Part shown: one piece after another, positions 37,157 through 62,573 of the stretch | Layout of the letters: each line of letters begins with the position of its first letter | Numbering within the stretch: position 1 is the stretch's first letter | DNA from: Escherichia coli | Lineage (GTDB): Bacteria > Pseudomonadota > Gammaproteobacteria > Enterobacterales > Enterobacteriaceae | Reading direction: 5' to 3' (one strand) | DNA: 64,000 nucleotides | NCBI RefSeq assembly: GCF_044324785.1 | Contig: NZ_CP172127.1 | Notes under the pieces: model-generated | What the model saw: the letters and a program-made list of their open reading frames with translations, nothing else | The model's database searches: none | Told to the model about the DNA's origin: nothing | Translations under genes and position numbers: made by a program

Positions 37157-39436
37157 ATGGATGACCAGTTAAAACAAAGTGCACTTGATTTCCATGAATT
37201 TCCAGTTCCAGGGAAAATCCAGGTTTCTCCAACCAAGCCTCTGGCAACGCAGCGCGATCTGGCGCTGGCCTACTCACCAGGCGTTGCCGCACCTTGTCTT
37301 GAAATCGAAAAAGACCCGTTAAAAGCCTACAAATATACCGCGCGCGGTAACCTGGTGGCGGTGATCTCTAACGGTACGGCGGTGCTGGGGTTAGGCAACA
37401 TTGGCGCGCTGGCAGGCAAACCGGTGATGGAAGGCAAGGGCGTTCTGTTTAAGAAATTCGCCGGGATTGATGTATTTGACATTGAAGTTGATGAACTCGA
37501 CCCGGACAAATTTATTGAAGTCGTCGCCGCGCTTGAACCGACCTTCGGCGGCATCAACCTCGAAGACATTAAAGCGCCAGAATGTTTCTATATTGAACAG
37601 AAACTGCGCGAGCGAATGAATATTCCGGTATTCCACGACGATCAGCACGGCACGGCAATCATCAGCACTGCCGCCATCCTCAACGGTTTGCGCGTGGTGG
37701 AGAAAAACATCTCCGACGTGCGGATGGTGGTTTCCGGCGCGGGTGCCGCAGCAATCGCCTGTATGAACCTGCTGGTAGCGCTGGGTCTGCAAAAACATAA
37801 CATCGTGGTTTGCGATTCAAAAGGCGTTATCTATCAGGGCCGTGAGCCAAACATGGCGGAAACCAAAGCCGCATATGCGGTGGTGGATGACGGCAAACGT
37901 ACCCTCGATGATGTGATTGAAGGCGCGGATATTTTCCTCGGCTGTTCCGGCCCGAAAGTGCTGACCCAGGAAATGGTGAAGAAAATGGCTCGTGCGCCAA
38001 TGATCCTGGCGCTGGCGAATCCGGAACCGGAAATTCTGCCGCCGCTGGCGAAAGAAGTGCGTCCGGATGCCATCATCTGCACCGGTCGTTCCGACTACCC
38101 GAACCAGGTGAACAACGTTCTTTGCTTCCCGTTCATCTTCCGTGGCGCGCTGGACGTTGGCGCAACCGCCATCAACGAAGAGATGAAACTGGCGGCGGTA
38201 CGCGCGATTGCAGAACTGGCCCATGCGGAACAGAGTGAAGTGGTGGCTTCAGCTTATGGCGATCAGGATCTGAGCTTTGGTCCGGAATACATCATTCCAA
38301 AACCGTTTGATCCGCGCTTGATCGTTAAGATCGCTCCTGCGGTCGCTAAAGCAGCGATGGAGTCGGGCGTGGCGACGCGTCCGATTGCTGATTTCGACGT
38401 CTACATCGACAAGCTGACGGAGTTCGTTTACAAAACCAACCTGTTTATGAAGCCGATTTTTTCCCAGGCTCGCAAAGCGCCGAAGCGCGTCGTTCTGCCG
38501 GAAGGGGAAGAGGCGCGCGTTCTGCATGCCACTCAGGAACTGGTAACGCTGGGGCTGGCGAAACCGATCCTTATCGGTCGTCCGAACGTGATCGAAATGC
38601 GCATTCAGAAACTGGGCTTGCAGATCAAAGCGGGCGTTGATTTTGAGATCGTCAATAACGAATCCGATCCGCGCTTTAAAGAGTACTGGACCGAATACTT
38701 CCAGATCATGAAGCGTCGCGGCGTCACTCAGGAACAGGCGCAGCGGGCGCTGATCAGTGACCCGACAGTGATTGGCGCGATCATGGTTCAGCGTGGCGAA
38801 GCCGATGCAATGATCTGCGGTACGGTGGGCGATTATCATGAACATTTTAGCGTGGTGAAAAATGTCTTTGGTTATCGCGATGGCGTTCACACCGCAGGTG
38901 CCATGAACGCGCTGCTGCTGCCGAGTGGTAACACCTTTATTGCCGATACTTACGTTAATGACGAACCAGACGCAGAAGAGCTTGCGGAGATCACCTTGAT
39001 GGCGGCAGAAACTGTTCGTCGTTTCGGTATTGAACCGCGCGTGGCTCTGTTGTCGCACTCCAACTTTGGTTCTTCTGACTGCCCGTCGTCGAGCAAAATG
39101 CGTCAGGCGCTGGAACTGGTCAGGGAACGTGCACCAGAACTGATGATTGATGGTGAAATGCACGGCGATGCAGCGCTGGTGGAAGCGATTCGCAGCGACC
39201 GTATGCCGGACAGCCCTTTGAAAGGTTCCGCTAATATTCTGGTGATGCCGAACATGGAAGCTGCCCGCATTAGTTACAACTTATTGCGCGTTTCCAGCTC
39301 GGAAGGTGTGACTGTCGGTCCGGTGCTGATGGGCGTGGCGAAACCGGTTCACGTGTTAACGCCGATCGCATCGGTACGTCGTATCGTCAACATGGTGGCG
39401 CTGGCTGTGGTTGAAGCACAAACCCAACCGCTGTAA
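37157..39436 (+). CDS. maeB: NADP-dependent malic enzyme MaeB (malic enzyme fused to a PTA-like domain)
   Basis: 759 aa matching E. coli MaeB. Confidence 0.96.
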
Positions 39437-59048: not shown

Positions 59049-59068
59049 TCGTTTCTGATTCATTGATT

Positions 59069-59107
59069 AAAGGCCAGCCAGTAACACAACTGACTGGCCT
59101 TTTTATT
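59069..59107 (+). terminator. Intrinsic terminator of yfeX
   Basis: Hairpin aggccagccag-N8-ctgactggcct (one mismatch) followed by TTTTT. Confidence 0.7.
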
Positions 59108-59227
59108 ACTGCTTTAACGCCGCATACACTTGATCAACTACTTTCTGTCAGAACAGGGTATTTTGCGGCGCTGACGCTACAACTAACAGCCAGCAGAGAA
59201 AGATAGAGCATTGTCCGTTTCATATTA

Positions 59228-60652
<1,425 letters not shown>

Positions 60653-60655
60653 GGG

Positions 60656-61552
60656 TTATTCCTTGTCTAAAACCTGACGAATAAAGCCGCCGTGTTGATC
60701 AAGGCGTTTTTTAGCTTCTGCGGCATCGAGATTTTTCAGCACCATCACAATGGCCGTTTTACAGTTGCGCTCGCAGGCAACCAATGCCGCTTCCGCTTGC
60801 TCTGCGCTACATCCGGTAGCGTTTTTGACGATATTGACCTGGCGCACATGCAGTTTTTCGTTGGTGGCGACCACATCAACCATCAGGTTACCGAACACTT
60901 TGCCGGATTTAATCATCAGCCCGGTGGAGAGCATGTTGAGCACCAGTTTCTGCGCCGTACCTGCTTTCATTCGCGAAGAACCTGTGACCACTTCGGCCCC
61001 AACAACTGGCGTAATGGCAAACTCAGCGGTGGTTGAAACAGCGCTCCCGGGATTACAGGAAATTCCCACTGTGCGGCAGCCGAGCTGGCGTGCGTATTCC
61101 AGTCCGGCAATCACATACGGCGTGCGTCCGCTGGCCGCAATACCAACCACCACATCCTGCGCGGTTAAATTAAGATTTTTCAGATCGTTAACACCACCTT
61201 CCCGGCTATCTTCCGCGCCTTCCACCGCGTGCTGAATGGCATATTCGCCGCCAGCAATTAATCCAACTACCAGGCCTGGCTTCACGCCGTAGGTGGGCGG
61301 ACATTCGCTGGCATCCAGAATCCCCAGACGACCGGATGTTCCCGCACCGAGATAAATCAGACGCCCGCCGCCGCTTACCTGGGCGTGGATAACATCGATC
61401 GCCGCGGCGATATCCGGCAGTACGCGCTCAACGGCAAGCGGTACGGTTTTATCTTCATCGTTGATAATCCGGCACATTTCCAGCGTTGATACGCGGTCAA
61501 TTTCAGCCGAGGCGGCGTTCGAGCCTTCGGTAATCATCTTTTCAAGTTGCAT
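60656..61552 (-). CDS. murQ: N-acetylmuramic acid 6-phosphate etherase MurQ (SIS domain)
   Basis: 298 aa; 3 bp upstream of murP. Confidence 0.95.
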
Positions 61553-61643
61553 CGGTGGTGACCTTACTATTTACGATCAAATAATTGCAGATGTATGGAA
61601 TCATATATCCCGAATTGACAGACTTAAAGGAATCATTGAGTCT

Positions 61644-61658
61644 ACACTCGCAGAGTGT
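61644..61658. promoter_or_regulatory. Inverted repeat ACACTC-gca-GAGTGT in the murQ/murR divergent region; candidate MurR operator or CRP-like half site
   Basis: Perfect 6-bp arms with a 3-bp spacer, roughly mid-way between the divergent start codons; the adjacent TGTGA-N6-TCAta resembles a CRP site. Confidence 0.35.
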
Positions 61659-61715
61659 GAAGAGCGTCATAAGAACTTAAGCGGAATTTTTGCTGCCAGC
61701 CCAGGAGAGTGGAAG

Positions 61716-62573
61716 ATGTTGTACCTGACGAAAATACGCAATGCGGAAAGTGAATTTACCGAGAACGAGCAAAAAATTGCTGACTTTCTGCGGGCCAACG
61801 TGAGTGAGCTGAAATCCGTCTCTTCGCGCAAGATGGCGAAACAGCTCGGCATCAGCCAGTCGAGTATTGTGAAGTTTGCCCAGAAGCTCGGCGCGCAAGG
61901 ATTTACTGAATTGCGTATGGCGTTAATTGGCGAATACAGTGCCAGCCGGGAGAAAACGAATGCCACGGCGCTGCACCTGCACAGTTCGATTACCAGTGAT
62001 GATTCGCTGGAAGTGATTGCCCGCAAACTGAATCGCGAAAAAGAGCTGGCGCTGGAGCAAACCTGCGCGTTGTTTGACTACGCGCGGCTGCAAAAAATCA
62101 TTGAGGTCATCAGTAAAGCACCGTTTATCCAGATAACGGGCTTGGGTGGGTCGGCGCTGGTGGGGCGCGATCTGTCGTTCAAACTGATGAAAATTGGCTA
62201 TCGCGTGGCCTGTGAAGCCGACACGCACGTACAAGCCACCGTTTCTCAGGCGCTGAAAAAAGGCGATGTACAAATCGCTATCTCTTACAGCGGCAGTAAA
62301 AAAGAGATTGTCTTGTGCGCCGAGGCAGCGCGAAAGCAGGGGGCAACGGTGATTGCCATTACCTCGTTAACCGATTCTCCGCTGCGGCGGCTGGCGCATT
62401 TCACGCTCGATACCGTTTCCGGTGAAACCGAATGGCGTAGCTCGTCGATGTCTACCCGCACGGCGCAAAATTCTGTTACCGATTTACTGTTTGTTGGCCT
62501 TGTGCAACTCAATGATGTGGAGTCATTGAAAATGATTGAGCGCAGCAGTGAGCTAACGCAACGCCTGAAATGA
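61716..62573 (+). CDS. murR: RpiR-family transcriptional regulator MurR (HTH plus SIS domain)
   Basis: 285 aa from ATG 61716 (GGAGAGTGGAAG RBS); the ORF track extends 85 codons upstream into murQ. Confidence 0.93.

What the first reader, a model, noticed from the sequence alone, without database searches (positions are those of the whole stretch)
61553..61715. Inverted repeat in the murQ/murR divergent control region
ACACTC-gca-GAGTGT (61644-61658) has perfect arms and lies between the divergent murQP and murR starts. MurR is known to repress from this region, and the adjacent TGTGA-N6-TCAta resembles a CRP site. I cannot recall the published operator sequence, so these are candidates only.
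Basis: inference. Interest (0 to 1): 0.3.

Follow-up and report, generated by a model that had tools for sequence, protein, structure and literature searches.

The report
Chance palindrome beside known CRP site
The small perfect palindrome between the E. coli murQ and murR genes is real but looks incidental; the elements that evolution conserves here are the neighbouring CRP site and two GGAAT-type boxes that are the likely MurR operators, in a control region that was already characterised experimentally.

Summary
The window is E. coli. The 163-bp murQ–murR spacer (61553-61715) and the palindrome ACACTC-gca-GAGTGT (61644-61658) are exactly as described. The palindrome is not beyond chance: 28% of shuffled spacers contain an equally good one. 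It is also not conserved. Its left arm differs in a second E. coli spacer type and in Citrobacter, Salmonella, Klebsiella, Serratia and Enterobacter relatives, with no compensating changes. Its right arm persists only because TGT belongs to the CRP half-site.

Three elements are conserved in all ten genera examined:
- The CRP site TGTGA-N6-TCAtA (61656-61671). It is centred at -71.5 from a mapped murQ start (61592), which is a class I position.
- GGAATCATATATCCC (61597-61611), over the murQ -10.
- GGAATCATTGAGTCT (61629-61643), over the -10 of the mapped murR start (61650).

The two GGAAT boxes lie 32-33 bp apart. They fit the published "two adjacent inverted repeats" bound by tetrameric MurR.

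The primary footprint paper (Jaeger & Mayer 2008) could not be read, so the box assignment rests on comparative genomics. This is an already known system and of low interest.

Side observation: murR is deleted in 1048 of 5426 complete E. coli genomes.

The parts
61553..61715 (.). murQ-murR divergent intergenic control region (163 bp)
   Evidence: ORFs; RefSeq annotation under the match; equals MG1655 2545610-2545772 reverse-complemented.
61644..61658 (.). The flagged inverted repeat ACACTC-gca-GAGTGT. Judged incidental. It fills the non-conserved 12-bp linker between MurR box 2 and the CRP site, plus the TGT of the CRP half-site.
   Evidence: Present; chance-level; left arm not conserved and no covariation; spans -6 to +9 of the mapped murR TSS.
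61656..61671 (.). cAMP-CRP (CAP) site TGTGA-AGAGCG-TCATA, 9 of 10 core matches, centre 61663.5
   Evidence: Top de novo palindrome, 8 of 8 spacers. Present in all 10 genera. Centre at -71.5 from the murQ TSS 61592. murQP is listed as CRP- and MurR-regulated, citing Jaeger & Mayer.
61597..61611 (.). Candidate MurR operator box 1, GGAATCATATATCCC (1 mismatch to GGAAT-N5-ATTCC); overlaps the -10 of the murQ promoter
   Evidence: GGAATCATATAT is invariant in 8 aligned genera or haplotypes. Perfect palindrome GGAATCATATATTCC in Salmonella, Klebsiella and Serratia. Inferred from comparative genomics; the footprint was not seen.
61629..61643 (.). Candidate MurR operator box 2, GGAATCATTGAGTCT (GAATCA-T-TGAGTC, 5 of 6 arm match). 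It lies 32 bp after box 1, abuts the murQ -35 and overlaps the -10 of the mapped murR promoter.
   Evidence: Direct repeat GGAATCAT at 32-bp spacing. Box-box spacing of 32-33 bp and box 2-to-CRP spacing of 25-27 bp are conserved. Three matches with at most 2 mismatches fall in this 163-bp spacer out of 34 in 64 kb.
61683..61697 (.). Doubtful third box, GGAATTTTTGCTGCC. It more probably corresponds to the TATGCT -10-like element of other genera.
   Evidence: 2 mismatches. Alignment A4 aligns it with TGcTATGCT of other genera, while their perfect third box (GGAATnnnTGATTCC, about 38 nt before the murR ATG) falls in a gap in Escherichia. MG1655 reads TATGCT here (SNP at 61690).
61592..61628 (-). 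Proximal murQ promoter: -35 TTTAAG (61628-61623), 17-bp spacer, -10 TATGAT (61605-61600), TSS at 61592
   Evidence: TSS from Kim et al. 2012 Table S1 (NC_000913.2 position 2543755, 7 reads, 40-nt leader). The hexamers were read from the sequence, so they are inferred.
61615..61650 (+). murR promoter as mapped genome-wide: -35 TTGACA (61615-61620), 17-bp spacer, -10 GAGTCT (61638-61643), TSS G at 61650, which is the first loop base of the inverted repeat
   Evidence: TSS from Kim et al. 2012 (2543697, minus strand in K-12, 14 reads, 66-nt leader). The hexamer assignment is inferred.
61668..61668 (-). Distal murQ TSS, inside the right half of the CRP site. Its transcript would overlap the murR transcript over 61650-61668.
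   Evidence: Kim et al. 2012 (2543679, 8 reads, 116-nt leader).
60656..61552 (-). murQ (MurNAc-6-phosphate etherase)
   Evidence: 298-aa ORF; annotation.
61716..62573 (+). murR (RpiR/AlsR-family repressor, HTH_6 + SIS domains)
   Evidence: ORF; annotation; Pfam PF01418 and PF01380 on homologues.

Best explanation
The region is the already characterised MurR/cAMP-CRP control region of the E. coli murQP-murR divergon.

Its working parts are:
- A class I CRP site at 61656-61671, centred 71.5 bp upstream of the proximal murQ start (61592).
- Two GGAAT-type boxes at 61597-61611 and 61629-61643, three helical turns apart. Each is probably bound by one dimer of the MurR tetramer.

Box 1 covers the -10 of the murQ promoter. 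Box 2 abuts its -35 and covers the -10 of the mapped murR promoter. One MurR tetramer would therefore shut both promoters until MurNAc-6-phosphate releases it. CRP activates murQP and sits at +6 to +22 of the murR transcript.

The flagged palindrome is not an operator. Its left arm and loop fill the 12-bp linker between box 2 and the CRP site. That linker is conserved in length but free in sequence, and it also holds the murR transcription start. Its right arm is GAG plus the TGT of the CRP half-site. Its perfect symmetry is a coincidence confined to the K-12-type E. coli spacer.

Shown: the sequence features, their conservation or lack of it, and the mapped starts. From the literature: MurR tetramer, two repeats, MurNAc-6-P induction, CRP dependence. 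Inferred: which boxes MurR contacts, and the promoter hexamers.
For: - Chance: 28% of shuffled spacers contain an equal or better repeat, and the window holds 0.62 such repeats per 163 bp.
- Non-conservation: the left arm is ACACTT in Escherichia sp. MOD1 and TAAATC or GAAATC in a second E. coli/Escherichia spacer type that keeps an intact murR and murQ. It is CGTTGC, AATACA and others in Citrobacter, Salmonella, Klebsiella and Serratia. Paired cells are 51% against 54% in shuffles, and only 1 pair changes on both sides.
- The linker between box 2 and the CRP site keeps its length while its sequence varies; box 2 start to CRP start is 25-27 nt.
- CRP: TGTGA-N6-TCACA is the top unbiased palindrome, in 8 of 8 spacers against a null maximum of 5. 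It lies at -71.5 from the TSS at 61592.
- GGAAT boxes: GGAAT-N5-ATTCC is found in 5 of 8 spacers with at most 1 mismatch (the null reaches 5 in 1.4% of shuffles). It occurs two to three times per spacer. It is a perfect palindrome in Salmonella, Klebsiella, Serratia, Citrobacter and Hafnia. Box-box spacing is 32-33 bp and box 1-to-CRP spacing is 58-60 bp in 9 genera.
- The boxes follow murR whichever gene is divergent from it: murQ, a porin-like gene or murP.
- Literature: MurR is a tetramer that binds two neighbouring repeats in this spacer, one operator for each promoter.
Against: - The DNase I footprint of Jaeger & Mayer 2008 could not be read. Assigning MurR to the GGAAT boxes is therefore comparative inference, not a direct test.
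- A footprint over box 2 could extend a few bases into the left arm.
- The repeat is exact in 4076 of 5426 complete E. coli genomes, although that is expected from shared ancestry.
- It straddles the mapped murR start, so a lineage-specific role at that promoter is not excluded.
- The genome-wide TSS counts are low, at 7-14 reads.
- As I recall the 2008 abstract, it describes face-to-face promoters with overlapping 5' ends. That fits the mapped starts only if the distal murQ start (61668) is paired with the murR start (61650).
- The shuffle nulls ignore the relatedness of the compared spacers.
Confidence: 0.8

Rival explanations
1. One reading: ACACTC-gca-GAGTGT is the MurR operator or part of it. 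A MurR dimer binds the palindrome next to CRP and represses both promoters.
For: Perfect arms inside the spacer where MurR is known to bind. The repeat overlaps the mapped murR start and immediately follows box 2, so it may lie inside or at the edge of a MurR footprint.
Against: MurR is reported to bind two neighbouring repeats, and this is a single one. The repeat is at chance level. The left arm is replaced in E. coli and Escherichia strains that keep murR and murQ, and in every other genus, without compensating changes. It matches the 15-nt box consensus at only 6 of 15 positions. The right arm is explained by the CRP site.
Confidence: 0.05
2. The repeat acts as an RNA hairpin. It would lie near the 5' end of the distal murQ transcript (start 61668, hairpin at +11 to +25), or in a longer murR leader if murR starts further upstream. 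There it could stabilise the mRNA or modulate the sense-antisense overlap.
For: The distal murQ start at 61668 places the whole repeat in that transcript. The isolated 23-mer folds at -6.5 to -7.1 kcal/mol.
Against: In the context of the transcript the fold is no better than shuffles (z = -0.49). The murR mRNA from 61650 lacks the left arm entirely. There is no covariation, and the stem is broken in the second E. coli spacer type and in all other genera.
Confidence: 0.05
3. The left arm is constrained as part of the K-12-type murR core promoter (discriminator and start-site region, or a TACACT -10-like hexamer). The palindrome arises only because that sequence happens to mirror the CRP flank.
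For: The murR TSS maps to 61650, the first loop base. Other Escherichia spacer types carry TTAAAT or TGAAAT at the same place, and these also resemble a -10. The K-12 type differs from other genera, whose -10-like TATGCT lies downstream of the CRP site.
Against: TACACT ends only 1 nt before the mapped start, and it lies 22 bp from the TTGACA -35, so the spacing is poor. The TSS is supported by only 14 reads. This reading still makes the symmetry itself incidental, so it refines the best explanation rather than competing with it.
Confidence: 0.08
4. The repeat binds a second, unidentified regulator specific to E. coli.
For: Nothing positive. It is simply not excluded by sequence analysis.
Against: Chance-level occurrence, no conservation, and no literature hit for the sequence.
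Confidence: 0.02

Closest known systems
MurR/cAMP-CAP regulation of the E. coli murQP-murR divergon (Jaeger & Mayer 2008, J Bacteriol 190:6598; Zhang et al. 2022, NAR, PMC9177960)
   Same: Same locus: the spacer differs from K-12 at 2 of 163 positions. Tetrameric MurR binds two neighbouring repeats in this spacer, MurNAc-6-P is the inducer, and CRP is involved.
   Different: Nothing differs in the system itself. The published operator coordinates could not be read, so identifying my boxes 1 and 2 with the published repeats is an inference.
Class I CRP-dependent promoters (for example lac at -61.5 and malT at -70.5; my own knowledge)
   Same: A TGTGA-N6-TCAnA site centred at -71.5 from a mapped start. 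This is on the same helical face as classic class I positions.
   Different: The same site lies at +6 to +22 of the divergent murR transcript and over a distal murQ start. It can therefore also obstruct transcription; the roadblock idea comes from the 2008 abstract as I recall it.
Operators of other RpiR/AlsR-family regulators (for example HexR palindromes of the type TGTAAT-N-ATTACA; my own knowledge)
   Same: 15-bp palindromic sites with 5-7 nt arms, read by an HTH_6 dimer, often in pairs for a tetrameric SIS-domain regulator.
   Different: The half-site here is GGAAT(CA), with the consensus GGAATCAnTGATTCC derived. It was not compared quantitatively with other family motifs.

Membership tests
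cAMP-CRP binding site (class I activator site) | Match to the TGTGA-N6-TCACA core | tested here: met
   TGTGA-AGAGCG-TCATA, 9 of 10 core positions.
cAMP-CRP binding site (class I activator site) | Conservation of the site in orthologous control regions | tested here: met
   At most 1 mismatch in 8 of 8 representative spacers, and top of an unbiased palindrome search. Also present in Klebsiella and Serratia. TGTGA and TCA are invariant in alignment A4.
cAMP-CRP binding site (class I activator site) | Centre near -61.5, -71.5, -82.5 or -92.5 relative to the activated start | tested here: met
   Centre 61663.5 against the murQ TSS 61592 gives -71.5. Box 1 (which holds the -10) to CRP spacing is 58-60 bp in 9 genera.
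cAMP-CRP binding site (class I activator site) | cAMP-dependent CRP binding and activation shown experimentally | not testable with these tools
   Reported by Jaeger & Mayer 2008, cited as 'CRP, MurR' regulation. The paper itself is not held.
MurR operator: the flagged 6-3-6 repeat | Two neighbouring inverted repeats bound by the MurR tetramer | tested here: not met
   The flagged element is a single repeat. The literature summary gives two neighbouring repeats, one operator per promoter.
MurR operator: the flagged 6-3-6 repeat | Conserved wherever murR and its divergent target are conserved | tested here: not met
   The left arm varies within Escherichia and in all other genera. Pairing is 51% against 54% in shuffles.
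MurR operator: the flagged 6-3-6 repeat | Protected by MurR in a footprint; binding weakened by MurNAc-6-P | not testable with these tools
   Needs the 2008 footprint figure or a new EMSA.
MurR operator: GGAAT boxes 1 and 2 | Two neighbouring imperfect inverted repeats in the spacer | tested here: met
   61597-61611 and 61629-61643, 32 bp apart.
MurR operator: GGAAT boxes 1 and 2 | Conserved with murR across genera, independent of the identity of the divergent gene | tested here: met
   Present in Escherichia, Citrobacter, Salmonella, Klebsiella, Serratia, Pluralibacter, Enterobacter, Lelliottia and Hafnia, and weakly in Brenneria. The divergent gene is murQ, a porin-like gene or murP.
MurR operator: GGAAT boxes 1 and 2 | Overlap with core promoter elements, as expected of a repressor | tested here: met
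   Box 1 contains the murQ -10 (TATGAT). Box 2 contains the -10 for the murR TSS at 61650. The hexamer assignment is inferred.
MurR operator: GGAAT boxes 1 and 2 | Direct MurR binding | not testable with these tools
   The whole spacer is shifted by MurR in EMSA, but no sub-fragment data were accessible.
Structured regulatory RNA hairpin | Stability above background, and covariation | tested here: not met
   z = -0.49 in transcript context. No covariation.

The most novel reading that the evidence does not exclude
The palindrome is a recent regulatory innovation specific to the K-12-type spacer. Because it straddles the murR start and lies at +11 to +25 of the distal murQ transcript, it could form a 5' hairpin or a cruciform-prone site. 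That structure might tune the face-to-face murR/distal-murQ transcription, or recruit a second factor, in the roughly 75% of E. coli genomes that carry it exactly.
Probability: 0.05. Interest if true: 0.3.

Novelty: already known. Interest (0 to 1): 0.1.

Why it matters
It matters little for discovery, because the murQP-murR control region, its repressor, its inducer and its CRP dependence are published.

The check is useful in two ways. First, it is a caution: the most eye-catching perfect palindrome in a control region is not the operator. Second, it yields a comparative-genomic definition of the likely MurR box (GGAATCAnTGATTCC) and of a rigid layout of box, box and CRP site shared by ten enterobacterial genera. 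That definition could be used to predict MurR regulons.

The side observation that about one fifth of complete E. coli genomes, including ST131, have lost murR while keeping murQP may matter more for cell-wall recycling physiology than the flagged repeat does.

Tried and rejected
- I tried to read Jaeger & Mayer 2008 by PMC id and by PubMed id; it is not held.
- The supplementary figure S6 of the 2022 NAR paper and file S1 of the sigma-S paper are not held.
- Literal searches for the box and palindrome sequences in full texts found only unrelated primer matches.
- Searches for papers quoting the operator, a MurR motif, CRP ChIP data or the face-to-face arrangement gave nothing usable.
- A search for 'murR' with 'phylogroup B2' was swamped by 'Murray'.
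- Thomason et al. 2015 TSS data are not held.
- The RNA-hairpin idea was rejected on stability and covariation.
- A third E. coli box at 61683-61697 was first counted as a MurR site. It was then downgraded, because the alignment places it opposite the TATGCT element of other genera while their real third box is deleted in Escherichia.
- A perfect GGAATACATCATTCC at 38284-38298 lies inside a 759-aa ORF and was set aside as chance.
- The Lysobacteraceae loci L016-L022 (27-30% identity, no murQ nearby) were not used.

Full report
**Identity of the locus.** The window is E. coli chromosome. Positions 61400-61900 are 100% identical to several complete genomes and are annotated murQ / murR. murP is at 59228-60652 (minus strand), murQ at 60656-61552 (minus) and murR at 61716-62573 (plus). 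The 163-bp spacer, 61553-61715, corresponds to MG1655 2545610-2545772 in reverse orientation. It differs from K-12 at only two spacer positions, 61622 and 61690. Data from K-12 therefore transfer directly.

**Check of the observation.** ACACTC (61644-61649), gca, GAGTGT (61653-61658) is a perfect inverted repeat. TGTGA-AGAGCG-TCATA is at 61656-61671 and shares TGT with the right arm. The repeat is not statistically unusual:
- 28% of 5000 dinucleotide-preserving shuffles of the spacer contain a perfect 6-nt repeat with a 0-10 nt loop.
- The window itself holds 244 such repeats, or 0.62 per 163 bp.

**What the literature available here says.** Zhang et al. 2022 (PMC9177960) summarise Jaeger & Mayer 2008. 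MurR is an RpiR/AlsR-family tetramer. It binds two neighbouring repeats in the murR-murQ spacer, "separately to each operator", and represses both murQP and murR. MurNAc-6-P releases it. Another paper lists murP as regulated by "CRP, MurR", citing the same source. The 2008 paper and the supplementary figure showing the operators are not held. I could therefore not read the footprint coordinates. What I remember of the 2008 abstract (a class I CAP site, face-to-face promoters, CAP as a roadblock for murR) is marked as memory.

**Comparative genomics: data set.** A scan of one genome per species with MurR returned orthologues in Escherichia (97-99% identity), Citrobacter and Salmonella arizonae (79-84%), and Pluralibacter, Enterobacter, Lelliottia and Huaxiibacter (54-56%). 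A protein search followed by contig look-ups added Klebsiella aerogenes, Serratia ficaria, Hafnia and Brenneria. The gene divergent from murR varies: it is murQ, a porin-like gene followed by a DUF2057 gene and murQ, or murP. Whatever is conserved upstream of murR is therefore tied to murR and its regulon rather than to one neighbouring gene.

**Comparative genomics: the flagged palindrome is not conserved.** The left arm takes these forms:

| Source | Left arm |
|---|---|
| E. coli window | ACACTC |
| Escherichia sp. MOD1 | ACACTT |
| Second Escherichia/E. coli spacer type (intact murR and murQ; e.g. strain MDR_56, E. whittamii) | TAAATC or GAAATC |
| Citrobacter | CGTTGC or CGATGT |
| Salmonella, Klebsiella, Serratia | AATACA-like |

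Counting the six pairs on a 13-sequence alignment gives 51% paired cells against 54% in column shuffles. One pair changes on both sides, and the result is no better than when the partners are slid by a few columns. The part of the right arm that persists is TGT, which belongs to the CRP half-site. The distance from box 2 to the CRP site is conserved (box 2 start to CRP start 25-27 nt) while its sequence is free.

**Comparative genomics: what is conserved.** I enumerated all palindromic patterns of the form 5 nt, N0-10, 5 nt over 8 representative spacers, without prior assumptions.
- TGTGA-N6-TCACA ranks first, in 8 of 8 spacers with at most 1 mismatch.
- GGAAT-N5-ATTCC and its register variants follow, in 5 of 8.
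- In 1000 shuffled sets the best pattern reached 5 only 1.4% of the time and never reached 6. These nulls ignore the relatedness of the sequences.

The GGAAT boxes occur two or three times per spacer. They are perfect palindromes in several genera: GGAATCATATATTCC in Salmonella, Klebsiella and Serratia; GGAATTAATGATTCC and GGAATTTTTGATTCC in Salmonella and Citrobacter; GGAATCAATGATTCC in Serratia; GGAATAAATTATTCC in Hafnia. Pooled, they give GGAATcATtgATTCc. That consensus is partly shaped by how I selected the boxes.

The geometry is rigid. Box 1 to box 2 is 32-33 bp, and box 1 to the CRP site is 58-60 bp, in nine genera. In the window, three matches with at most 2 mismatches fall within the 163-bp spacer, out of 34 in 64 kb.

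**Promoters.** Genome-wide 5'-end mapping in K-12 (Kim et al. 2012, Table S1) gives three starts:

| Start | Window position | Strand | Reads | Leader |
|---|---|---|---|---|
| murQ, proximal | 61592 | minus | 7 | 40 nt |
| murQ, distal | 61668 | minus | 8 | 116 nt |
| murR | 61650 | plus | 14 | 66 nt |

- For the proximal murQ start, the sequence offers -10 TATGAT (61605-61600) and -35 TTTAAG (61628-61623) with a 17-bp spacer. The CRP centre (61663.5) is then at -71.5, a class I position. Box 1 covers the -10 and box 2 abuts the -35.
- For the murR start, there is a perfect -35 TTGACA (61615-61620) and, 17 bp later, GAGTCT (61638-61643) inside box 2. The CRP site lies at +6 to +22.

Each box thus sits on the -10 of one promoter, which matches "each operator" in the 2022 summary.

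The murR start is the first loop base of the flagged palindrome. The palindrome therefore spans -6 to +9 of that promoter, and the murR mRNA does not contain its left arm.

The distal murQ start and the murR start face each other, and their transcripts would overlap over 61650-61668. This could be the face-to-face pair of the 2008 abstract, but I could not verify that. The read counts are low and the hexamer assignments are my inference.

**RNA reading.** The isolated hairpin folds at about -7 kcal/mol. In the distal murQ leader the fold is no better than shuffles (z = -0.49). With no covariation either, an RNA role is unlikely.

**Population view.** A 56-nt segment covering box 2, the palindrome and the CRP site is distributed as follows among 5426 complete E. 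coli genomes:
- Exact in 4076.
- 90-95% identical in 255. The one examined, MDR_56, has the left arm GAAATC with murR and murQ intact.
- Absent from 1048.

In the genomes that lack it (for example ST131), homology ends at about 61642, just after box 2, and resumes in the last ~30 nt of murR. murR is therefore cleanly deleted and murQ is followed by ucpA.

**Verdict.** The sequence observation is correct but the palindrome is at chance level and evolutionarily unconstrained. The CRP call is right and corresponds to the known CAP site. The MurR operators are most probably the two GGAAT boxes to the left of the palindrome. The system is already known. The only residual uncertainty is that the published footprint could not be consulted. 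Interest is low.

Noticed in passing
window 61643-62545; locus L023 4154-4432 (ST131 NZ_CP051609.1): murR is cleanly deleted in 1048 of 5426 complete E. coli genomes, including O25b:H4-ST131. murP-murQ is kept and is followed after 279 bp by ucpA. The deletion starts just after MurR box 2 and removes the palindrome and the canonical CRP site, leaving TGTGA-TGTCAC-TGAAA. Both boxes carry point changes (GGGATCATATATCCC and GGAATCATTAAGTCC). Such strains presumably express murQP without MurR control. I found no paper describing this.
   Followed up: partly
window 61672-61715; L004-L006, L024, L007-L010, L025, L026 upstream of murR: There are two spacer types in Escherichia. The minority type (L004-L006, MDR_56) shares a TGcTATGCT extended -10-like element downstream of the CRP site with Citrobacter, Salmonella, Klebsiella and Serratia. 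Those other genera also have a perfect third box (GGAATnnnTGATTCC) about 38 nt before the murR ATG, and that box is deleted in Escherichia. The K-12 type instead shows a murR start upstream of the CRP site. MG1655 still reads TATGCT at 61689-61694, while the window strain reads TTTGCT (SNP at 61690).
   Followed up: partly
L009 597-2298; L025 568-2297; L026 597-2297; also L010 and L012: In Salmonella arizonae, Klebsiella aerogenes, Serratia ficaria, and some Citrobacter and Enterobacter, the operon divergent from murR begins with a 361-aa porin-like protein with a signal peptide and no Pfam match. A DUF2057 protein follows, and then murQ. E. coli lacks both extra genes. This may be a MurNAc or muropeptide outer-membrane uptake module under MurR/CRP control.
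   Followed up: partly
window 59049-59227: The window strain has no yfeW (PBP4B) gene after murP. Only 179 bp separate murP from yfeX, whereas K-12 carries yfeW there, and the murQ operon is described as murQ-murP-yfeW. ST131 has an annotated gene fragment at this place.
   Followed up: no
window 61760-62500: The murR coding sequence is unusually diverse for an E. coli chromosomal gene. No complete genome is more than 98.8% identical to the window over this stretch, and 1120 genomes are only 90-95% identical. The adjacent 61400-61900 segment, in contrast, has 100% matches. This suggests recombination or several old haplotypes at this locus.
   Followed up: no
window 38284-38298: A perfect GGAATACATCATTCC, matching the inferred MurR box, lies inside a 759-aa ORF (37157-39436). 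It is most likely a chance match.
   Followed up: partly
L028 1768-2500 (Brenneria goodwinii): The murQ-murR spacer is 733 bp and is filled with repeated G+C-rich palindromic units (…GGGGAGGGAGAAAGCC…TTTTTAATGCG…CCCCTGACAAGGGG…), which are REP-like insertions. The GGAAT box pair stays next to murQ.
   Followed up: no
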